From contig CM069148.1 in NCBI GenBank assembly GCA_035221665.1, positions 11,160,001 to 11,224,000 of the forward strand: DNA of 64,000 nucleotides. Direction: 5' to 3'. This DNA comes from Okamejei kenojei (Eukaryota). The notes beneath the pieces are model-generated. The model saw nothing but the letters and a program-made list of their open reading frames with translations. It did no database searches and was not told the origin of the DNA. This document shows positions 1 to 61,579 of this stretch, piece by piece. Numbering within the stretch: the first letter of the stretch is position 1; every line of letters starts with the position of its first letter. A program made the translations under genes and the position numbers.

Positions 1-899
1 AATGTTCAAAATTATGCTGTCATTTCGCACTGAAAGGCATGAGTCATTTTAGTTTTAGTGGCACTAATGACTTAAGATAGAAATTATAATTAGTTTTGTG
101 TTTGCTGCAAAAAATAATTCAGGTAATTTATTCATTTAATCATTTAACCCAAATCCTCACATGATCATTTAGACGACAAAGGGGACTTTGTGCTTACAAT
201 AGATCTCAACTTTGAAAAGACAAAATGTTCTATGCATATATTACACAAGGGGTACTTGTGGATTGCACTGCCATGAGAATAAATGTCAAAACTCTCCTGT
301 GGCTTCACTAATTATGGTTTGTGTGGTTTTCTGCAATATTGGGATAAAATGATAAATAATGTTGAATTTAAAAAGACATCTAGTGTAAAGATACACAAGA
401 TATATTGCTAAACTCAGACTTTCTTCGACTTTAATATTACCCTCCACAACAATTGCAACAATATAAGGAAATTAAGTTTAATCTGTTGCAAGAAATAGAT
501 GACAGTGTTAAATGAAAATTAACTGAGAGTTATTCATGGCACTGAATATACTGCAATAAAGGTGGTATTTAATATTGATTTTCTGATGTCAAGAAATTAA
601 TGAAAATAGACCAATAATATATTGACAGTCATGAAAGAGTTTAGCTTCCACTAAAGTATGCAGTATGTGAGTTTTTATGACTATACCATAGAACATAGAA
701 TATATAACATTACAGTGTAGGAACAGGCCCTTTGGCCCACACTGTTTGTACTGAACATGATGCCAGATTGAACTGATCTACGCCTGCATATCCCTCCAAT
801 CCCTGCATATCCATGTGCCTAGCTAAAAGCCGCTTAAGTGCCACTGTCATATCTGCCCTGGCAGTGCATTCCAGGCACCCATCAATTTTAATTCAATTT

Positions 900-2383: not shown

Positions 2384-2533
2384 NNNNNNNNNNNNNNNNN
2401 NNNNNNNNNNNNNNNNNNNNNNNNNNNNNNNNNNNNNNNNNNNNNNNNNNNNNNNNNNNNNNNNNNNNNNNNNNNNNNNNNNNNNNNNNNNNNNNNNNNN
2501 NNNNNNNNNNNNNNNNNNNNNNNNNNNNNNNNN
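2384..2533. other. Assembly gap (150 N) inside a CT-rich simple repeat
   Basis: Run of N flanked by (CT)n. Confidence 0.99.
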
Positions 2534-8046: not shown

Positions 8047-8207
8047 ATATTTTGCTCTCTGTATCTTCCCCTTTGCGCTACCTATTGTACTTGAGTTTGA
8101 CCTGATTGTATTTATGTGTAGTTTTAGTTGATCTAAACATAAATACAATCAGGACAAACTCAAGTACAATAGGTAGCGCAAAGGGGAAGACACAGAGAGC
8201 AAAATAT
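8047..8207. repeat. Near-perfect inverted repeat (71-bp arms, 19-nt loop)
   Basis: 8047-8117 is the reverse complement of 8137-8207 with 2 mismatches. Confidence 0.9.
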
Positions 8208-11945: not shown

Positions 11946-12321
11946 CAGTTTTCTGTAAAAGATCCTGGAAATTGTTCCAAAGAGCAATGTTTCAAGACAT
12001 TTCTGGCTCTCTATCCAAGACTGAGCCCTAAATGATTTTCAAAAAAATCAGTTTATTTGGTAATTACTTCATTGCTGGTTGTGAGACTTGGGCTTAACAC
12101 GGAACATAGAGCATTATAGCTGAGGAACAGACTCTGATCCCAAACGTGCCAAACATGAAACCAAATTAAGGTCACGTTCGCAGCCTGCATGTTATCTACA
12201 TCCCTCTATTCCCGGCATATTCATTTAAAAGCCTCTTAACGGCTTTCACCACCACCCTTGCAAGTACAGTATGTTCGAAGCACACACCACTCTCTAATCA
12301 CACCTCATATCTCCTATAAAC

Positions 12322-12457
12322 TTTCAAGAAGGAACTGCAGATGCTGGAAAATCGAAGGTAGCCAAAATTGCTGGAGAAACTCAACGGGTGCGGCAGCTTC
12401 TATGGAGCGAAGGAAATAGGCAACATTTCGGGCCGAAACCCTTCTTCAGATTGAAGG
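12322..12457 (-). mobile_element. Penelope-like short element with 10-bp TSD, nested in an old CR1 3' fragment (about 12100-12560, minus)
   Basis: tcctataaac at 12312-12321 and 12458-12467; minus strand has ctgaagaagggtttcggcccgaaatg. Confidence 0.75.
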
Positions 12458-12849
12458 TCCTATAAACCTTCCCCTTCTCACCTTTAACCAATGCCCTCCA
12501 GTCTTTGATATTTCCACCCTGGGGAGCAGAGTCTGACTGTCCACACTGCCTATGCCTCAAAAGTACTTCACTGGCTGCAATGTGCTTTGGGATGTCCAGA
12601 GATCATAGATGTATGGGAGGCAAAGTTATGAATGTTGATTGGAGTCTAATCTACTGTGTAGCAAGAGACCCATGTTCATAAGTTAAATGTCACCCATGTG
12701 CTCAGTGGATTCTGCATTTAACTGTAGGACCAATTCTGGAACCAGCAAAAATCAATGAAGTCAGTGAAATTTATCTTTGAAAAATACCAACAAGCTGTTT
12801 ATAAACAGCAAAAATCTAAACAGAGTATTTGTTAAATGGTAAGGGAATG

Positions 12850-17390: not shown

Positions 17391-17586
17391 GTGTAGGAAG
17401 GAACTGCAGACGCTGGTTTAAACCGAAGATAGACACAAAATGCCGGGGTAACTCAGCGGAACAGGCAGCATCTCTGGAGAGAGAAGGAATGGGTGACGTT
17501 TCGGGTCGAAGAAAGATCTCATTCCTTCGCACCAGAGATACGACCTGTCCCGCTGAGTTACTCCAGCATTTTGGGTCTATTTTCGA
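17391..17586. mobile_element. Palindromic Penelope-like terminal fragment pair
   Basis: gtaggaaggaactgcag...actcagcgg..caggcagcatctctggaga followed by a partial inverse copy. Confidence 0.65.
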
Positions 17587-17912
17587 TTGGCATAAAACGT
17601 GGATACATATTTCCAGGCTAGTTTACTGGCGGATAATGTCGATTCTGACTGCCAAATTAATCTGTATCAAACGCTCCCTAAATGCCACAAAGCCCTAGTA
17701 GTAACTCAGCGGGCCAGACAGCATCCCTGGATCGGGATCACTAAATACTAAATGCGATGCTTCACGCCTTAATAGCACCGGAAACACCTGAAGTATCTCT
17801 CATGTGATAGACATTACATGCTGGAGTAATTCGGCGGGACAGGCAGCTTCTCTGGATGGTAGGAATGGGTGACGTTCCTGAAGAGGGGTCTCGACCCGAA
17901 ACGTCACCCATT

Positions 17913-19232: not shown

Positions 19233-20839
19233 CCTTCTATCCGGTGATTCTGCCTGTCCCGCATTTTGTGTCTCGGTGTAAACCGGCATCTGCAGTTCCT
19301 TCCTACGCGTCTCTCGAAGATTAGTGCACAAAAAAAAGAGTTAACCTTGTTGCAGTGTTCATGTCAGGAAAATTAACGTAACTGACAGAGTAGTCTTGAC
19401 AGGATTAGATCTTCCTCGAAATGTGGAAACAAAGAACTGCAGATGTTGGTTTATACCAAAGATAGGCACAGCGTGCTGGAATAACAGCGGGTCAGGCAGC
19501 ATCTATGGAGATCACGGATGGGTGACATTTCGGGTCTGGACCCTGCTTCAGACGAGGAGTCCCGAACCGGAACGTCACCCATCCTTTTTCTCCGTGGTGC
19601 TGCCTGACCCGTTGAGCATTGTGTCTATCGTTGGATCTTCATCGAACTTGGTTTGCTCGCTTGATACAGATTAATGTGGCAATCGCATGCCAGAACAAGG
19701 TCTACTTGCACCTGTAACGATTAGCTAGTGAAAGGGTCAAGAGTGTTTTGTTGTCATATGTCCCGAAAACGAACAATTACATTCTAACTTGCTGCAGCAC
19801 AACAAGCCTGATTTGAAATTTGCAATCTACGTGCATTTGGCTGCTATCGCTTAAAATTATACAAATGCACGACTTATTTCTTTGTCGCATTATATCTTTG
19901 ATTTGTATCTTTATCTCCCTTGCTCCCTGTGATTTTACCCCTTAATGGTGTATTATCTAATGACTGGGTGAGATATTTCATCGATTAAAGCAAGTCAGAA
20001 AATGCTGCAAGCATTCAGCGGGTCGGGCAACACCAATAAATCGAAACGGAGTTAACATTTCTCCGTCAATTCTTCGACCTTATCGCTGTTTCTCTTTCCA
20101 CAGATGCTGCCTGACCTACCAGGTGTTTTCATCATTTTCCGATTTCATTTCAGATTCCTCGCGTCTGCCTTTTATTTTCAAATTCTGGGACAAGTGATCG
20201 TTCATCTTGGATTTTTTTTTAAATTTCAGATAAAAGTATAGAACTTTGGAACGCTATTTGAAAACTAACACATCATTCAATGCTAAATGGGAGATTGAAC
20301 TCGCATTAAATTCATTTGATGCCGCAACTCCGTGAAGGCAAGGGGCCCGTTCCGGATGTAGTTCATTGATCCAACTATTCTTGTGTACAAATTTCATAGA
20401 ATTATAGAAAAGTATTAATTGATTGCACTTTTATTGTTATATATTATCTGTGTTGTTACTTTTTCTGGCCTGTTAAGATACTGCAAGTAAAAATGGCATT
20501 GTACTGTTGTCGGTACTTATGACAGTTAAGCACTTGACTTGAATTTAATGCAAGGTGTGGATTCATTTGTCCACCCTTTTTTCGTGATCTTATCCCTTCT
20601 TTTCCGCACAAACTACTTATGTGAACGAAATGCAATAATCATCTTCGCTCAATCTCTCCCTGTGAGTCAGTTTCATATCCTAGCCTCTAAATAAACAAGT
20701 CTCCCCAAATTCCCTATTACATGTATTGATGATAACCTTATACTTGTAGTGTCTAGTTTGGTCTTCCCAGGAAATTGAAACATCCTCTCCACCAGCGCAA
20801 CGGAGCTTAATTACCGAGGGCCCTATTAGATCACCTCTG

Positions 20840-22540: not shown

Positions 22541-23959
22541 ACATTGTTATGGTTTTGCTACTGCCTCTGGTAACCTCAACGATTTAGTTCAAATGCCATT
22601 CTCCATGAGGGCGAATCCAATATGATAGAACGATATGTTTCACAGCACAACATGCAGTACGAAGATCCAGCACGGACACAGGCCGTTCAGTCCAACTTGT
22701 CCACGTCGACCAAGATGCCCCATCTAAGCTTGGCCACTTTGAATCAATACTCCCTAAACCTTTCATATTCATGTACCTGTCCAAATGTCGTTTTAAATTT
22801 GCTGTTGTGCCCGCCTCAATTACCACCTCCGGCAGCTCGTTCCATATACCCAGCACCATCTGTGTGGGAAAACTTGCCGCTCAGGTTCCTGTTCAATCTT
22901 TTCCCTCTCACTTTAAATAAGTCAGGCAGTTTATCAGATAGAACTTGGTTGACTCTGGCGATATGAAGTTAACGCACTAACAATGAATTGTGTAGGAAGG
23001 AACTGCTGATGCTGTTTACACCGAAGATGGACAAAATCCTGGAGTAACCCAGCAGGACAGGCAGCATCTCTGGAGAGAAGGAATGGGTGACGTTTCGGAT
23101 ATGAAGAAGGGTCTCGACCCGAAACGTCACCCACTCCTACTAACAATTATTTTTGTTTTCGTATTGTCTGCCTTTAGTTATCAGAATAATCGACGGAGTG
23201 TCAAATTACAATTATTTGCCTTAGGTTTGTGTATCTCTGGGGCCAATATTCACTCATATATATTCAAATACACCGAAGATCCTTAATGTCACGTTGGCGT
23301 CAGCGATTTTCGTAACTCCAGAATTAGTGGAATTTGAGAGTCTTAGGTGCATTTACAGGCGACATAAATGTTTATTAACTATGTTTTAGATATTTTTCCG
23401 GCGGAAGTGGGGAATAAGACCGGTCCGCGTAACTGTAAAAATAATAAAACTAAAGTTGTTGGCATCTATCATTTTCAATGAGCTGTGTCATGGCAACGAG
23501 CGACGGGTGGGTAGAAGTAACGGATCGGTCCAGAGAGCGTGGCGGGAACAAATAGACCCACAGTAACAGGTCCTGGGCTAAAGTTCCCTCCTTGAAGCAT
23601 TTCCCATTAACGGGAGATTGTCGCTTTACCGGTTCCGGTGGGTGCGGCGTGGGGTATGGAGGGCAGGGGTAGGGGAAGAATGTGAGGTTTTATTAGCTGT
23701 CTAATTAATTGGTAGTTTAGAACATGCCAATTTATTTACCATTGATGCTTAATGAATGGGTGAATCTGAAGCGCCTTCTGAAATTTCTGCTTAAAGTGGT
23801 TTTTTTAAATGTATTTGTTGTCTGGTCAAGTGACAACTGCCAAACATGCTAGCTCAGTCTATCTCTCTCTCTCTCTCTCTCACTGAAACACACACTCTCT
23901 CTCTTTCATCACTCTCCCACTCCGTCCTTCACTTTCTCTCTTTCTCTCTCTCCTGGCAG

Positions 23960-24806: not shown

Positions 24807-25003
24807 NNNNNNNNNNNNNNNNNNNNNNNNNNNNNNNNNNNNNNNNNNNNNNNNNNNNNNNNNNNNNNNNNNNNNNNNNNNNNNNNNNNNNNNNNNNNNN
24901 NNNNNNNNNNNNNNNNNNNNNNNNNNNNNNNNNNNNNNNNNNNNNNNNNNNNNNNNNNNNNNNNNNNNNNNNNNNNNNNNNNNNNNNNNNNNNNNNNNNN
25001 NNN
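24807..25003. other. Assembly gap (197 N)
   Basis: Run of N. Confidence 0.99.
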
Positions 25004-25252: not shown

Positions 25253-28161
25253 ACTATGAGCTTGTCTCTCTCTATGCCCCTGTGTTTATGTGAGTGTGCA
25301 TGTTTGTTTGAACCAGAATCCATGCAGCAAAGCACCTGAATCCCGGCGCTCGATCACATCGTTATGTTTTCGATGATTGTTTAGCGTGCACTTGCCAATT
25401 GGATTGACATATGTCAGCTATGTACAATTACTTTTCAGTGTCTGTTTACTTCGTGTGGGGGGGGGGGGGGGGGGGGTCGTATACAACGCCACAGCTCAAA
25501 AAAGAGGAACAAAGTTAAACCCGCAGCCACACTCGCAGCGAGAACATGGGAATATCGCAACCCTAGACAACCCCAGAACTCTCTGAGTGCTTCATTAACG
25601 CAACCAGGTTCCTCCTGGCCTTTTCGAAGTTACAAATAGGGATAACTATACTATGTTTGACATGCATGCACACCGAATGCAGGTTTTTTTAAAACACGTG
25701 CTTATGCATAACGTGTGTTTTATTAAATCAGCGGGTTTTATTAAACGCTAAGTAAATAAACTTGCTGAGGACTTGAGTAACGGTACGCTATAGCTCTCCT
25801 TTTTCGGACGAATTGTTCAGACAGGGCGGTGTATATCCAAGTGAACTATAAGGTATAACATTGGAACGATAATCGGGAGCAGCATTTTGTAACCCGATAG
25901 TTGTTGTACACACTAACACTAATCCTTCCAGGGGCTTTCGGCTTAATATAAATTTCCAGTAACCACTAACCGGCTGCTAATATTAAAATAACCGGTGTTG
26001 CCTAGTCTCCGGATCGGCGCTGTAAACGTTGGGGAATTGACATTTAATAAACGTTTTGTGAGGCTATTAGGAGCAAGCGGGAGAGGGTGGTGGGGGGAAG
26101 GTGTGGGGGTCACATATTTAGACATCACATTCTTTACAAATGCCCGATTCAAAGCAACGCGTGTTTCAAACAGGGGCCTGCATGGTGCAGCGACCACAGT
26201 GAGGTGAACTGTGAATGGCGGGGGACAGCTTACTGTAAGACGTGTCCAAATGTACCCACCAGTGGCACCGACTCCGACCAAGAACCTTGGAGAATTGTCC
26301 AGTTAGAGTCACCGCGTTTTATTTTTCGTTAGCTGTGTTGTTTTTGTTTCCCCTGGAGGACATGACCCACGCAGAAAGTGCCCTGGTGTTCATTGTGCTT
26401 GAAGCGCCTTCCCCACTTTGAAATTTATGCCGCGAATTTTTGTATTAAAGCTCTGAACTAAATGGATCGGCAGAAAAAGAAAAGTTATTTAAAGGACGTT
26501 TCTCATTACGTGCCCAAATGATTCTGAGACCTACGGTGTGACCATTATTCGGAATATGTTTCTATTTACAATAAAAACTATTACAGTATTTTTTTTTCAA
26601 AGATGTCAGGGGGGAGGGGGGTGGTAATTACTTGCTTTATTTAACTGGAGGGATTTCAGAAATGCCCCACCCAGCGAGGAACAGTCCAGTCAAATTCAAG
26701 GTCGTGAGTGCTAAGCGAGGGCTGATTGGGGGGGGGGGGGGGGGGGTGATGTTGGTGGGGAAGGGGAGAGGGTGCATGCGGATTACACTGCTGATTGAGT
26801 TAATTGTTCTTTCAATGCTATAAATCAGCTCCTTCATTTAGTTTGGATGCTGCCCGCTGTGTTATATAAAGATGCAATGGCATGAAATCTTAAAATGGAT
26901 TCAATCCACGTTATCTCACCTGCCAGTGAAACGGCTTCGTATTTCGTTGCGGCGCTTCTCACTTCCCGTCACACCTTTTCGTTCAATTCCAGCTTCCATA
27001 GCTATTCCGGCAAATTGGATTTTGTTTAAAAATCCCTCTGTGCTTGTGTCCGCGGTTTGGTCATCTCCCGCTCTTTGGCAATCGATTTTAGCTTGCGCGG
27101 GCCAGCTTCACGATGTTGCTTAAACTGCGTGAATAGGCAGGTTAATTATTTAAATTTCTGTAGCGAATGCTGCACCTCACGTTAAGAATGCCATAATTAA
27201 AGAGACAGCAGCTTTCTTTTGTTGGCCTCACAGCAGAAGCATCGTGCATGGTCACATACATCAGTCCTAGCAGCCCATTACTATAACTTCCAGTTATTTT
27301 TTTCTTGAAGTTGTACAAGGAGTCAGAAATCGTGCAAGAACCCAAGCGGCATATCAATTTATTATCAGGGGCAATAATGGATCATACCTACATTTTGAAA
27401 ACGAAGATATCATGTTCTATGTAGGGTGCGTTCTAAAATAGCAATATCCCGCGTAAAATGCAAAGAAAAAAATACCTAGTATGTTTGTCAGCTAAGTGAA
27501 ATCAAATAAAGACACTCCAAATACGAATGTGACATCTTAAGCACTATTTACTACAGTTCTGATCATATTCTGTCAGTTGAATATCTTCTATTTAATAATG
27601 GGACCCTAATCCAACTCAGCAGTTTTACATTAGGAAAATACTTTAACGGGCGTATTATAAAGGTGCTTTCTGCAGCTGCGCATTTGAGTGATGATACTCA
27701 ATTGACTCCAAACATTTTATATTGTTGATGCTACCAGAATTTTGTCACCGAATAAAGACAATTGCTTTCTACTCAACATATTGTCCATTTCTGGGACTAT
27801 GAAATTCACTAAACCACATTCCCACTTAAAAGTAAAGTTCCACTCCTTGTGGACTATTACTTTATCCAAACCCCCAAAACTGGTCTGAGGGCTTGTGTTT
27901 AAGTTTCAGTGTAGAAACTTATAATCACAGCAACGGTGTCTATACTTTCGAGTCTCTTCGCTCTGACGTGCTTTGGGAGCCGTTTGAAGTTGCACTACAT
28001 AAATACAAACCTTTATTTTTCAATAAGTAAACAAGGAAAAAAATCTCCTTTGTTAATTACCCATCTACCACGTTCCTATCAAGAACGCGTGGCCTAATCT
28101 TACTTATGTCCCTGATATTAAAGTGTTCTATCACCTAGTGAAGCGAGGCTCTAAATAGAGA

Positions 28162-28253
28162 GCTGAAGAAGGGTCTCGACCCGAAACGTCGCCTATCTCC
28201 TTCGCTCCTTAGATGCTGCTGCACCCGCTGAGTTTCTCCAGCTTTTTGTGTAC
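28162..28253 (+). mobile_element. 92-bp Penelope-derived insertion with hammerhead-like core and 14-bp TSD
   Basis: gctctaaatagaga at 28148-28161 and 28254-28267. Confidence 0.85.
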
Positions 28254-29119
28254 GCTCTAAATAGAGACACTGGTGTCTACTTGCTTAAAATGTAACCCGC
28301 GTTACACCTAATGTCAGCCATCCTCAGACCGTGTCACTTGGCACAAAAGACGCCCAGATGAATACCCCATATTTGGAACACCACATTAAGTCGAAGTCAC
28401 CATCCGCTCCCTCTGACACCTATCCACAGTTAAACACACACAAAAAAAATAAACTCATCAAATGCTCGTGATGTATGTCATGTAAACAATCCAGCGCTTC
28501 GGCGACGGGTCAGGCTGCACAGATTGATTCACGGATGAACTCGTTTTGAAGAGTTGTGCAGTTTGGAAAGGAAGAGGCAACACCTGGCTGCTTTAGCTCC
28601 GTTTACCTTTGCCGAGAGACAGATAAGGGTTCAACACGCCATTTCCAGCCCCTCCTTCCAGAACCCTGGTCGGTTGCACGGTTTCAGAGCGCGCCTAATA
28701 GCGAAGGGTCGCATCATTAGCAAAGCACCTTTCGCTTACAGCTTCTCATTAAAATAAAACTGTTGAAACATTATCCGCTGACTTCCTGCCATACTGGCCA
28801 ACATATTGTCAAGTCATATCCAGAGTAGAGGTAAACACTACTTGCTCCTGTGTCCTTCCTGACATGGTAAACACACACATTTATTTTAAAACCCATTACT
28901 TCACTTAGTCTAACATAAAACAGAAAGCCAAAACGTGACAAAACATCCTACCTTCTATAATAAGAAGTGGACAATAGCTTATCCTGCTGCCCAATTTAGA
29001 AAATGGATATTCGCATGTAACTATACCACAGGCAAAGCCCCGTAACCGGTTGCACAAATCCTCCTACAATTATAGACATGCTGGTATATTTTATTCATAT
29101 ATGCTATTTAATGTATGTG

Positions 29120-54622: not shown

Positions 54623-54895
54623 ATGTAGGAAGGAACTGCAGATGGTAGTTTACACCGAAAGACAGAAAATGCTGGAGTAACTCATCGGGTCAGGCAGCAT
54701 CTCTGGGGAAAAGGAATAGGCGACGTTTTGAGGTCTACTGTGGGCTCTTTAGCCATCGGAGCCCTTTTCATACCTCGAGTTTCCCTTTCCTTGACTCTCG
54801 GTCTGAGGAAGGGTCTCGACCCGAAACGTAACTTATTCCTTTTCTCACAGAGATGCTGCCTGACCCGCAGAGTTATTCCAGCATTTTCTGTCTAT
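54623..54895. mobile_element. Penelope-like inverted terminal pair
   Basis: gtaggaaggaactgcag...caggcagcatctctgg then ctgaggaagggtctcgacccgaaacg...gatgctgcctgacccg. Similar units occur at 19420-19630, 22990-23137, 50165-50840, 55297-55655 and 61320-61530. Confidence 0.65.
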
Positions 54896-56042
54896 ATTCA
54901 TGGAGAATACTAGTTTGAGATGGAAACTCTGGGGTATTGTCGTTTCAAATGGTAGTCTGCATATTAACAGTATCGGGATATTGTCATTTTGGGACTGGAG
55001 TTGGACTGGCCGTTGCACGGAGCTCAGCAATTAAAGACTTGTTCACTAATAGTGTAACAGAGACGCCGAGGGTTACGAGGACTGGCGACTCCTAACATCG
55101 TAGTTGATTCTATGGTAAATTTATCAAGTTATCAGAAGGTCCAAAAGTCTTGCCGTGACCTGTCCCTGTAGCCCGTCCGGTGCCAAACACTGCGAGTGGT
55201 TTCACACTTGGTTCCAGTAATCCAGTAAACAGGATGTCCTCTTGACCCATGAGGTTACTGCCGGCTCCCATCCAGATCGATGTAATAGCGCAGAGAGTGT
55301 AGGAAGGAAATGCAGTTGCTGGTTTAACAAAAAAGTTAAAGACACACAAAAAAGCTGGAGTACCTCAACGGGCCAGGCAGCATCTTTGGAGAAAAGGAAT
55401 AGGTGATGTTACGGGTTGTTTCCACCTAGCCCACAGCTAACAATGGACCTTGATTATCGTTACTTTTCGGCATAATATTTCGTTCATTTGTTCTAACCTC
55501 TCTCTATGTCACCGTTTACATGTCTCGTTTCCGTTTCATCTGACTCTCCGTCTGAAGAAGAGACTGGACCCGCAATGCCAACTGTAAGGTTTTTCTTCCT
55601 TTTCTCCAGAGATGCTACCTGACCGCTGAGTTATTCCAGCTTTTTGTGTCCATCTAATATTAGAGATTCTGCTATCTCTGAAGCAAAAGACCATGCCCGC
55701 TTGAAGTTGCAATTTCCCCACTCCCATCAATTTAACGTTAGCTTCATCTAAACAATCAACTCATTACATGTTTATTGGTGAATTAAGAATGTAATAGAAT
55801 ACGGGCCAGGCCATTATGTCCATCTGGTCGTGTTGTTAATAATGGGAATAAAAAATATTGGAACGAAGGATTGATAGTACAATGTATAAAAACGATTAAA
55901 TAATATGAAATGAATTATTTAAGCAGTGTTTTTTTATTCTTAAATGTAAAACAATAAAAATATGGGTAAATAGGTTGTATTGTATTTGGTGTAAACCAGC
56001 ATCTGCAGTTCCTTCCTGCACAAACTATTACTTAAGTCGTGA

Positions 56043-56522: not shown

Positions 56523-59236
56523 TGCATAAGAGCGATTTTTTCATTTCTACACAGATTTTCAGACAAACATTTAACGTCTGTCCCTATCTGGCCTTGAGAA
56601 GGCAACAATAAAGACAATGTTGCAACCACAGAGTAATAGAGTTTCATAGAGAAATACAGGATGGAAATAGCTCTTTCGCCCCAACTCATCCATGCTGATT
56701 AAAATGCCCATTTAAGCTAGTCCCATTTACCTGTGTTTGGCCAATATATTTCTAAACATTTATAATGTATTTGAAATATTGTAATTTTACCTGCCTCCGC
56801 TAATTTCTCTGGCAGCTCATTCCATGTACCCACCATCCACTGTTTGAGGAAGTTACCCCTCAGGTCCATTTTAAACCTCTTCCCTTTCACCTTAAGTCTC
56901 TAATTTATGATTGTCCTTCTCTGGGGAAAAGGCTGTGTGCATTTACCTTATCTATGGCCCTCCTTATTTTGTGCAGTTCATGAGGTCACCACACAGTCTT
57001 CTAAGCTCCAAGGCATAATGTTTTACTTTAGGAGGGTCTAAAGAAGTCAGGTCACCATCCTGAAATGTTGTTGGTCCATTCCACCAGATGCTGCCTGACT
57101 CTCTGAGGTCCTCCAGCATGTTGTGTTTTGGATAAAGCCCTAACCTGCCCAACCTCTCCCCACAACACAGGTCGTTGAGTCCTGGATATTATTTGCACTC
57201 TTATATTAAGAGTATTTTCAGTATTATTATTAATTGCATATTTCCCTATTATTGGGTGGTCAAATCTATACCCAACATCCAAGTCTGTGTGCTAATTGTT
57301 AGATTTTTTACACATTAAGGGAATCAAGGTATGTTGAGTTGTACATAAAGGTTAAAGGTCAGCCATGGTTTATTGAATGGCTGGTAGCAAAGGGGTTGAG
57401 GGGCAGGTTTGACTGATCTACTCCTGTTCATTTTTAATGTTCTTATGAAAGCTCTCTCATTGTGCTGTTGCTAGAAATTATAAGGACTTGAGCCCACAGT
57501 AATGAAAGATCAATTATATATTTCCAAGTAAGGATGGTGTGTGAGTTAGAGGTTGTGATATTCCCACGGGCATGCTGCCTTTATTTAATGCACTGTAGAT
57601 GGCAGATTTGGAAGATGCAGCCACATAAGCTTTGATGGGTTGCTGCAGTGCATATATTAATTTAATGTTTAATGCACATATAGCAGCAACAAGCACTGTT
57701 GATGGAGGAAGCGATGTTTGAAATGATAAAATTATATCAATGAGGTGACATTCATGGCAGAATACCAGCTTTTGAATGTCCTTACAGCTACAGTATTTTC
57801 ATATTTGATGCAACTAATGTTTTTCTCTATGCTGAGCTCCCCTTGATGGTAGACCATAGAACAGTACAGAACAGGAACAGGCCCATTGGCATACAATGTC
57901 TGTGCCAAACTTGATGCCAAGTTAATCTAATCTCACCTACCCACATTTGCTCCATATCCCTCTATTCCCTGCATATCCATTTTGATGAGGATCCAACTAC
58001 TGAAGGCCACAGTGTGGTATTTGCTTTCTTTTATTGGAGATGATCACTGCCTTGCACTTATGCGTTACAAATATTATTAATGAATATCAGCCCAAACATT
58101 GTTGCCCAGGTCTTGTTGCATGTGGATAGGCACAGCTTGACTTCAAAGGAAAAGCGAGAGAGATAGAAATACAGAGAACATGAAGTGCGGGGGGGGGGGG
58201 GGGGGGGATTAGCAAAAGAGCAGTGTGCGACTGGTGGTGAATGAGTTTGTGGATCAGAACACATAGGAGTCAAGTCAAGAGTCACAAGAGTGTTTTATTG
58301 TCATATGTCCCAGACAGAACAATGAAATTCATACTTGCAGCAGCACAACTGATTATGCAAGTGAGTATGTGAGACAAATTGTTTATGAAAGTATGTTTGA
58401 GTGAAAGAGTGAGATCATGAGCATGGAAGTGTGAGTATGCACATAAAAATGAAATAATTTGATAGAGAACATTCTAAGAATGTGACAGTCAGATAGTGAG
58501 GTTGCGTATGAAAGGGAAAGAGAGAGACAGTGACAAGAGAATAAATGAAAAGTGGAGCATGGTGCTTGAAAAGTAAAGAATCATATCTTATGCTCCCTAC
58601 CACCCCGTTTTATTTGATTTTTGGAAGATCTGGGAGATACAGCACGGAAATGGGCCCTTCAGCATAACTCAGACATGCTGATCAAGATTCCTCCTTGAGC
58701 AAATCCAATTTACACGTGTTTGGTCCATATCCCTCTAAAACCTTCCTATCCATGTACCTGTCCACATGTCGTTTAAATGCTGATAATGCATGTACCTCCC
58801 CAAATGTTGTCTTACAAAGAACATTTGGACAGGTTAGAACCGTGAGAGGTGACTTGATTGAAGATGAGATGGAGGTCTTGATAAGTGGAGAGAATTGTTT
58901 CCTCTCAAGAGAGAATGGTAAACTGGGGTCAATATCTCAGAACAAGGAGACACCAAGTCAAGATTCAGATCATGTGAAACGTGTTCTCTTGGAAGTCCAC
59001 AAGACTTTGGTACTCTCTTCCTCAAAGGATGATGGAAGAAGAGACTGGATATTTTAAGACAGAATTATACAGACACATGATTAGCAATAAGATGAAATGT
59101 TTGCTAGGGATAGGCTGGAATGTGGAATTGATGTTAGAGCCACGTCAGTCATTACTTTATGAAATAGCACCCCATTCCTGCCCCTTAACTGCATGTTCAT
59201 ATGTTTGTACATATTTGACAAGATCTGTAAACAAAT

Positions 59237-59328
59237 CTGAAGAAGGGTCTCGACCCGAAACGTTGCCTATCTCCTTCGCTCCTTAGATGCTGCTGCACCC
59301 GCTGAGTTTCTCCAGCCTTTTGTGTACC
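59237..59328 (+). mobile_element. 92-bp Penelope-derived insertion with hammerhead-like core and 7-bp TSD
   Basis: aacaaat at 59230-59236 and 59329-59335; 2 mismatches to the copy at 28163-28253. Confidence 0.85.
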
Positions 59329-59355
59329 AACAAATAAAAACATCTTGTTTTCCAG

Positions 59356-59438
59356 AATTTGAAAGAACTCATTATCCCGATGTGTTTGCCAGAGAACGAT
59401 TAGCAGCCAAAATTGATCTACCTGAAGCTAGGATACAG
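59356..59438 (+). CDS. PAX6: PAX6 exon 9 (homeodomain)
   Basis: [28 protein letters not shown]; 83 nt; ccag| and |gtaaac. Confidence 0.99.
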
Positions 59439-60692: not shown

Positions 60693-61579
60693 TATTCAAT
60701 TGAGTATTCAGATCCTGTAATTATGATTCCCCAAGATCTGAAAGTGCAGTGATTATAATGAGAGAACATGGTATGGTAAAATGTTATCTGCTTTTGCGGC
60801 CCATTTGTCCACATACCCCCCGAGGGCATCGTAAGAAAAGAAATATGTTCTACATGGAATTGTAGCCTTAATTGGGTCAGGGCTAATGGGAAACATTCCG
60901 TTGAAGCTAGAATTTTCTCAGTGTGTTAAACCAGGGACAGATGAGTTGTCCTTAATGGGGAAGCTGTCTGATAAGGGAGACAATCTGTTTCTATCAAGGT
61001 AGTTAGGACTGGGTCACAATGTGAAAACACTATCAAATCATCTACAGTTCCGCAATATTACATGGGGAATTATCTCTGAAATCCCATGCGATTTATGGTG
61101 CGAGGGTTGTAAATTTCATTGCGTTACTTACAATGCGTCGGAGAAACTGTATTCATTCTCCCCTCCACCGTTTAAAAGACAAACCCGGTGGGCTCATCCT
61201 GTTAGGAAGGGACAGAGTTGACCCGCTGAGGTTTGTCAAATCAAGAATGGCGTTTGGTGAGGAGAACGGTCCCGGCTAATTGGTGGCTATGATTATATTT
61301 GCCAAAGCCGAGTTCGGCAACACATTTTCAATTGTTAGAGCAAAACACAACGTACTGGAGGAACTCAGTGTGTCAGGCAGTTCTGCGGAGGGAATTGTCA
61401 GGCGACATTTCGGGTCTGAAGAGGGGCTCTCAACCCGAAACATCATCTGCCCATTCTCTCCACAGATGTTGCCTGACCCGCTGGGTTCTTCCAGCATTTT
61501 GTGTTTTGCTAAAGATTCCAGCATCTGCAACTAAATGTATCTCTAGTGACTAGAGGTCGGCTACTTGTCCACGCAGATA

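What the first reader, a model, noticed from the sequence alone, without database searches (positions are those of the whole stretch)
28148..28267. Tiny (91-92 bp) mobile unit starting exactly at a hammerhead-ribozyme-like core, recently retroposed twice in this window
Seen: 28163-28253 and 59237-59327 differ at only 2 of 91 positions and share both ends. Each is flanked by its own direct repeat (14 bp and 7 bp), and a relative at 12322-12457 has a 10-bp TSD. Variable-length TSDs suggest retrotransposition. Each copy begins CTGAAGA-A-GGGT-CTCG-ACCC-GAAA-C-GTY, i.e. CUGAnGA/stem II/GAAA/UH. Across copies the stem persists while the loop varies (TTCG at 12.4 kb, CCAG at 19.5 kb, CCTG at 62.07 kb). 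Established: PLEs carry minimal hammerhead motifs with palindromic stem III that act as dimers. Caveats: there is an extra purine before stem II, stem I is very short or missing, and the 5' end is not at the predicted cleavage site. Inference: a minimal non-autonomous PLE-mobilised element family.
Basis: partly seen in the sequence, partly recalled or inferred. Interest (0 to 1): 0.7.

Follow-up and report, generated by a model that had tools for sequence, protein, structure and literature searches.

The report
Penelope retrotransposon stubs with hammerhead motif
These 91-base pieces are the stub ends of an abundant Penelope-type jumping gene, not a separate mini-element; most start at one narrow spot just before its hammerhead motif, which likely marks where the element's RNA begins.

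Summary
In detail: the two copies differ at 2 of 91 bases and have 14- and 7-bp duplications. The 91-mer is the hammerhead-bearing pLTR end of a ~3.95-kb Neptune-type Penelope-like element (RT, zinc-finger linker, GIY-YIG). Its core has 37,093 exact matches in the genome. Short and long copies share variants, divergence and tail frequency, so no separate non-autonomous master is seen. 3' ends fall at two sites about 34 nt apart (the known tail), and 18 of 20 head-to-head pairs have one tail. 5' ends are not random: 54 of 88 start within -7..+8 of CTGAAGA (2.6 expected), and none starts at the predicted ribozyme cut. Best mechanism (inferred, about 55%): RT primes internally about 95 or 130 nt from the transcript start and runs off the RNA's 5' end. 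A genome-wide cap-G test looked strong on raw counts but was inconclusive after confounders were removed. Ribozyme activity is untested, and helix I is only 2 bp. The scan has noted such stubs, and this idea, in other genomes. New member of a known kind.

The parts
28163..28253 (+). Short insertion of the pLTR end (+1..+91) of a Neptune-type Penelope-like element, without tail
28148..28161 (+). Left TSD (14 bp); 28162 is one extra G
28254..28267 (+). Right TSD (14 bp)
28163..28190 (+). Minimal hammerhead motif: core 28163-28169, extra A 28170, stem II 28171-28174/28179-28182, GAAA 28183-28186, palindromic stem III remnant, predicted cut after 28190. The 5' strand of helix I (-2,-1) is missing from this copy
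   Evidence: sequence; features in PMC4209133; conservation
28211..28242 (+). Conserved paired elements: the 5' arm of an 8-bp helix whose partner lies in the tail (absent here), and a 4-bp hairpin at 28227-28242; predicted RT-recognition structure
   Evidence: invariant in 6 subfamily majorities; no compensatory change
59237..59328 (+). Second short insertion (+1..+92), 20 nt (after its TSD) upstream of a Pax6 exon acceptor
59230..59236 (+). Left TSD (7 bp)
59329..59335 (+). Right TSD (7 bp)
12322..12457 (-). Older subfamily copy with tail; 10-bp TSD at 12312-12321 / 12458-12467
54662..54891 (.). Example of older divergent copies (54662-54732 minus, 54803-54891 plus). Head-to-head arrangements also at about 17433-17576, 17812-17912, 19468-19619, 23031-23138, 55344-55649 and 61345-61504

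Best explanation
The 91-mer is the end piece of a ~3.95-kb Neptune-type Penelope-like retrotransposon, inserted with target-site duplications, and it is likely a dead-end run-off copy made when the element's reverse transcriptase primes about 95 nt inside the RNA and runs off the transcript's 5' end. Shown: identity with the pLTR end, TSDs, two 3' end sites (+90-95 and about +126), a 5' end zone at -7..+8, and variants shared with long copies. Inferred: transcription starts at an Inr-like site (A at -3) just before the hammerhead core; the GIY-YIG domain cuts AT-rich DNA; RT starts at one of two internal sites, as shown for the anole element PAc. Priming at the first (5') copy of these sites gives 91-95-nt or ~130-nt stubs; priming on read-through or tandem RNA gives 5'-extended and full-length copies; priming on both cut strands gives head-to-head pairs with one tail. 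The hammerhead is carried along uncut and does not set the ends. Confidence: about 0.95 for PLE terminus, about 0.88 for by-product rather than own family, about 0.55 for transcript-start run-off.
For: Upstream extensions encode GIY-YIG, a C-x4-C-x2-C linker and RT. L118 shows an inverted copy plus a partial tandem plus the body; 6 of 11 long loci have the 91-mer at both ends, 3.87-3.99 kb apart. 3' ends: 85 of 123 at +85..98 and 38 of 123 at +119..134, none beyond. 5' ends: 54 of 88 at risk in -7..+8, against 2.6 expected from the upstream truncation rate. Of 14 ORF-bearing copies that reach the 5' 91-mer, 4 also start in this zone. Solo and long copies: position 81 C in 13/54 vs 8/32, position 91 A in 11/54 vs 7/32, divergence 1.9% vs 1.8%, tail 16/54 vs 9/32. 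One tail in 18 of 20 pairs. Two subfamilies with different 3' UTRs both end in CAGT before the core. Internal RT initiation, two start sites equal to the tail ends, cutting of both strands and a dispensable HHR cut are in PMC11167929; an internal pLTR promoter is in PMC2377424.
Against: No RNA 5'-end data: only assembled contigs were available. Ends spread over about 15 nt, and 6 reach -5..-7, beyond the proposed start. 9 of the 14 ORF-bearing copies extend further upstream. The cap-G test is inconclusive. Raw G/A ratios were 1.26 at -3, 1.42 at +3 and 0.58 at the +1 control. With inverted, tandem and multiplied junctions removed they are 0.92, 1.05 and 0.67, and the contrast with the control is 1.4-fold (95% interval 0.57-3.3). 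In Drosophila Penelope the transcription start lies about 120 nt upstream of the hammerhead (46 nt plus a 75-nt intron). None of 11 long loci has an uninterrupted ORF through the endonuclease.
Confidence: 0.6

Rival explanations
1. Roadblock truncation: same parent element, but RT on a longer RNA stalls or falls off at a structure or bound protein at the hammerhead core, making a truncation hotspot.
For: Ends are spread over about 15 nt, often with microhomology. Both stubs and ORF-bearing copies stop there while others pass. The corrected cap-G contrast includes 1. A 6-bp pairing of GAAAC with an upstream segment is predicted.
Against: Predicted hairpins lie 3' of the zone, so a stall should fall at +20 or later, where no ends are found. 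The zone has a sharp upstream edge and is shared by subfamilies with different upstream sequence. The folds are no more stable than shuffles (z 0.3-0.9).
Confidence: 0.25
2. Independent non-autonomous mini-element: solo copies are transcribed and re-mobilised in trans as their own lineage.
For: About 56% of the sampled copies are stubs (54 of 97). Non-autonomous pLTR derivatives exist (bioRxiv 10.64898/2026.07.22.740005; PMC8557442). Stubs keep the putative promoter region.
Against: No private variants; same divergence and same tail fraction as long copies. Tail-less stubs lack the partner of the conserved helix and the downstream RNA that PAc needs. Both ends vary between copies.
Confidence: 0.08
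3. Splicing-related 5' ends: the pyrimidine tract and CAG at -4..-2 act as an acceptor, and the template begins there or RT stops at a branch point.
For: Acceptor-like sequence. The Drosophila Penelope intron ends at hammerhead helix I.
Against: Solo copies share no upstream exon. There is no GT..AG joint into -1 among the 15 rows shown in each (42 and 110 rows were not shown). Many copies include -4..-2.
Confidence: 0.05
4. Ribozyme cleavage defines the 5' end.
For: The core is conserved (21 of 22 positions invariant). A few tandem junctions fall near +28/29 (L198, L200).
Against: The predicted cut would give starts at +29; 0 of the 97 unbiased copies start at +20..+30. No alternative register fits a cut at the zone (inspection of the sequence).
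Confidence: 0.02

Closest known systems
EN+ Penelope-like elements, Neptune type (PMC8557442, passages; PMC3846280, passages)
   Same: RT, Zn-finger linker and C-terminal GIY-YIG; partial tandem forming a pLTR; adjacent inverted copy; optional 30-40 bp tail; heavy 5' truncation; TSDs; hammerhead in the pLTR.
   Different: More than half of the copies are ~91 or ~126-nt stubs with a narrow 5' end zone. The ORF starts about 162 nt after the core, so the stub is all UTR. The clade was not confirmed by a tree.
PAc (Poseidon, green anole; PMC11167929, main text)
   Same: Two RT start sites that define the tail, AT-rich targets (TSDs 65% AT), both strands used, and ends not at the hammerhead cut.
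   Different: Other clade; in PAc the ORF begins in stem II. The text that I read describes no 5' end hotspot (figures S1-S2 not seen).
Minimal PLE hammerheads (PMC4209133, parts 1-2)
   Same: Core, extra base between 9 and 10.1, G10.1-C11.1, palindromic 15.2/16.2; mostly single dispersed motifs ascribed to truncated PLEs; opposite-strand pairs noted.
   Different: Helix II is 4 bp and helix I only 2 bp, against 4-5 bp (2 bp also in Drosophila Penelope).
Non-LTR retrozymes (bioRxiv 10.64898/2026.07.22.740005, parts 1-3)
   Same: Short, non-coding, hammerhead-bearing, related to pLTRs.
   Different: Defined as tandem repeats. These are mostly solo or head-to-head copies with TSDs, and identical to the parent's end.

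Membership tests
EN+ Penelope-like element (parent) | RT followed by a C-terminal GIY-YIG in one reading frame | tested here: met
   One 549-aa stop-free stretch in L278 hits RVT_1 (E 5e-5) and GIY-YIG (E 0.0015), both below Pfam's cut-offs; 43% identity to the GIY-YIG end of the RT+GIY-YIG protein P0085
EN+ Penelope-like element (parent) | Partial tandem forming pLTRs; adjacent inverted truncated copy | tested here: met
   L118; 6 of 11 long loci with the 91-mer 3.87-3.99 kb apart; 27 of 97 copies have an inverted partner
EN+ Penelope-like element (parent) | Optional 30-40 bp tail | tested here: met
   Two 3' end classes about 34 nt apart, 85 and 38 of 123
EN+ Penelope-like element (parent) | Variable TSDs and 5' truncation | tested here: met
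   TSD of 7-25 bp in 33 of 55 rows (33 of 48 without the 7 sister-subfamily rows); chance 13 of 300. Counts fall from 37,093 to 1,212 to 408 along the element
Neptune clade | Zn-finger-like CX2-5CxxC linker between RT and EN (shared with Nematis) | tested here: met
   C-x4-C-x2-C; definition
Neptune clade | RT phylogeny with named Neptune references | not tested
   No named reference was on hand; the homologs are unnamed or uncharacterised
Minimal PLE hammerhead ribozyme | Core, extra base, G10.1-C11.1, palindromic stem III, H not G | tested here: met
   21 of 22 positions invariant in 6 subfamily majorities, against 7 of 20 in the following spacer
Minimal PLE hammerhead ribozyme | Helix I of 4-5 bp | tested here: not met
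   2 bp in the parent; the 5' strand is absent or partial in the window copies
Minimal PLE hammerhead ribozyme | Compensatory changes in stem II | tested here: inconclusive
   Only a one-sided T-A to T-G change in a sister subfamily; the loop varies. The predicted folds do not form the hammerhead. No Rfam hammerhead hit
Minimal PLE hammerhead ribozyme | Self-cleavage, as dimer or protein-assisted | not testable with these tools
   Needs an in vitro assay
Non-autonomous (SINE-like) family | Own master lineage with private variants | tested here: not met
   54 solo vs 32 long copies, all p at least 0.4
Non-LTR retrozyme | Tandem repeats of two or more hammerhead units | tested here: not met
   The window copies are solo with TSDs; head-to-tail runs are occasional (L034, L268/L269)

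The most novel reading that the evidence does not exclude
Tens of thousands of stubs are strong-stop-like run-off cDNAs: the genome records the transcription start of a PLE, placed 3 nt before the hammerhead core. Internal priming at the first copy of the RT start site would then be the dominant, abortive outcome, and template jumps from the capped end would build the tandem and inverted structures that PLEs need.
Probability: 0.5. Interest if true: 0.55.

Novelty: new member of a known kind. Interest (0 to 1): 0.3.

Why it matters
As an element it is ordinary: a stub of a very common Penelope-like retrotransposon. Its value is as a large natural record of a poorly understood insertion cycle. 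It matches in a genome the two internal RT start sites and the use of both strands shown in vitro for PAc, and it points to a testable transcript start beside the hammerhead. It also warns that repeat annotators may file such stubs as a SINE.

Tried and rejected
DNA search of the genome with the 91-mer returned 0 because common words are skipped. Rfam gave no hammerhead, only two weak miRNA matches elsewhere. The first end maps were distorted by unanchored alignment and were replaced. Rows dropped: 3 segmental duplicates of 126 places, and 7 copies that seemed to start at -4 but continue in a sister 3' UTR. The descriptor scan had a bug and was redone; its 225 hits come from loci chosen for the family. 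Cap-G test: the raw p-values (about 1e-24) are not valid, because the counts are inflated by a preferred inverted junction (8 of 20 control loci) and by multiplied composites. What remains is weak: at -3 the G lies outside the TSD in 10 of 13 solos against 8 of 19 for A, and four contig joints in run X21 have a G before -3. Sequencing runs were contigs only, with RNA status guessed, so no start or expression level can be read; loose ends at -4/-3 appear in all four runs. No PDB relative of the RT-EN stretch. Type III or shifted hammerhead registers were considered by eye and do not fit. PMC5785218 is not held, and the supplementary figures of PMC11167929 could not be seen; either may already show the 5' pile-up.

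Full report
Numbering: +1 is the C of CTGAAGA (window 28163). The window is G000:C18:11160001-11224000 in a 2.76-Gb genome. The closest named homologs of the element's RT are from sharks and rays at 66-75% identity, so the host is inferred to be a cartilaginous fish.

Observation. The two copies differ at 2 of 91 positions. The TSDs of 14, 7 and 10 bp are there. The ends agree within one base. The motif pattern matches 4 times in the window and never in 100 shuffles. The family is very common: 30 nhmmer hits at E<0.01 in the window and 37,093 exact matches of a 41-mer in the genome.

What it is. Of the first 30 genomic loci, 8 continue upstream in a shared sequence. That sequence encodes a GIY-YIG endonuclease, a C-x4-C-x2-C linker and an RT. 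L118 shows the layout described for Penelope-like elements: an inverted truncated copy, a truncated tandem copy ending in the 91-mer and tail, the body, and a final 91-mer (PMC8557442 passages). In 6 of 11 long loci the 91-mer recurs 3.87-3.99 kb apart. The ORF starts about 162 nt after +1, and none of the 11 is uninterrupted through the endonuclease (longest stop-free stretch 1,009 aa). Exact-word counts fall from 37,093 at the end to 1,212 in the RT and 408 (one mismatch allowed) near the ORF start. A 41-mer spanning -29..+12 has 15,451 matches, a count that includes related subfamilies. The linker points to Neptune (or Nematis); no tree was made.

Ends. I mapped 126 places and dropped 3 segmental duplicates: 97 from the first 100 listed matches, all at the start of one chromosome, and 26 from a variant search. 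3' ends are at +85..98 in 85 of 123 and at +119..134 in 38 of 123. This is the PLE tail, whose two ends are the two internal RT start sites in the anole element PAc (PMC11167929, parts 1-2 of 4). Seven copies that seemed to start at -4 belong to a sister subfamily with another 3' UTR and were removed. In the unbiased sample 54 of 88 copies at risk start in -7..+8, against 2.6 expected. None starts at +20..+30, so the predicted cut after +28 does not make the end. TSDs of 7-25 bp are found in 33 of 55 non-inverted rows (33 of 48 without the sister rows), against 13 of 300 by chance. 27 of 97 copies have an inverted partner, and 18 of 20 distinct pairs carry exactly one tail (21 rows, two of them one pair). 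Four of 14 ORF-bearing copies that reach the 5' 91-mer start in the same zone, one at +16, and nine further upstream.

Own family or by-product. Solo (54) and long (32) copies have the same variants at positions 28, 81 and 91, the same divergence (1.9% and 1.8%) and the same tail fraction (16 of 54, 9 of 32). No private stub lineage is visible at this sample size.

Hammerhead. The core, the extra purine, G10.1-C11.1 and the palindromic stem III match the minimal PLE hammerhead (PMC4209133, parts 1-2 of 4). Across 6 subfamily majorities, 21 of 22 core and stem II positions are invariant against 7 of 20 in the next spacer, but two downstream helices are just as invariant (16 of 16, 8 of 8). There is no double-sided change, helix I is 2 bp, predicted folds do not form the motif, and Rfam does not hit. 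Conservation could also reflect promoter or RT-binding needs. In PAc the ribozyme needs protein and is not required for insertion.

Mechanism. PLE promoters lie inside the pLTR (PMC2377424 passages; PMC6765202 passages). Both subfamilies have an Inr-like CAGT just before the core (the Inr consensus is recalled). If the RNA begins there, internal priming at +92 or +126 of that first copy runs off after about 95 or 130 nt and gives these stubs. An extra G marks capped 5' ends in L1 and SVA (PMC4859970 passages), so I counted the base before three start positions genome-wide: G/A was 992/787 at -3, 830/584 at +3 and 446/764 at +1. Inspection of 20-30 loci per class (150 loci of 4,403 matches) showed that inverted junctions and multiplied composites distort these counts. 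Solo-only ratios are 0.92, 1.05 and 0.67, and the -3 to +1 contrast is 1.4 (0.57-3.3). This test is inconclusive, so a roadblock on a longer RNA stays a serious rival.

Literature and earlier notes. Nine searches showed, in their listings, no paper on this family or on a 5' end hotspot beside the PLE hammerhead. The library lacks most subscription papers and the repeat databases, PMC5785218 is not held, and the PAc supplementary figures were not seen. Also seen: PMC3846280 and PMC6155905 as passages, and bioRxiv 10.64898/2026.07.22.740005 parts 1-3 of 5. This scan's notes hold 229 findings with these words in at least 26 genomes, including the same run-off idea; a look-up by sequence and one on the cap test gave nothing. 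These notes are not independent evidence; my reading was written down before I saw them.

Verdict. A real, young, very abundant stub of a known class of retrotransposon. Interest 0.3; new member of a known kind. The transcript-start reading has a probability of about 0.5 and would deserve 0.55.

Noticed in passing
window 59230-59438: Copy 2 lies in sense orientation 20 nt upstream of the acceptor of an 83-bp Pax6 homeodomain exon (27 of 27 residues identical to PDB 2cue_A), that is in the branch-point zone; it brings an acceptor-like pyrimidine-CAG. Effect on splicing unknown.
   Followed up: partly
L048, L169-L171, L173, L175, L176: Sister subfamily with the same endonuclease end, a 3' UTR about 130 nt shorter, a T-G pair in stem II and a GUU triplet.
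   Followed up: partly
L185, L198, L200, L205, L035; table 5c: Short head-to-tail junctions in which a piece ending at +24..+36 is followed, often after a G, by a new start near -3; possible template jumps or insertion into existing copies.
   Followed up: no
L062, L303, L306, L309, L314, L315, L317, L318; L248/L249, L255, L259, L262/L263: Two head-to-head composites recur with the same flanks at many places, so they have been multiplied inside larger repeats.
   Followed up: no
L048 and L177: Two independent insertions beside the same short sequence of another common repeat; a possible target preference.
   Followed up: no
window 28211-28242 and the tail (L121:976-1120): An invariant 8-bp helix between +49..56 and the tail encloses the first RT start site; predicted recognition structure.
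   Followed up: partly
L271:rc 985-1150: An upstream ATG inside the 91-mer opens a short out-of-frame reading frame that overlaps the main ORF start (read by eye).
   Followed up: no
window 8088-8166: AT-rich palindrome with weak miRNA matches below threshold; probably a small inverted repeat.
   Followed up: no
window 2384-2533, 24807-25003: Two runs of N, away from the finding.
   Followed up: no
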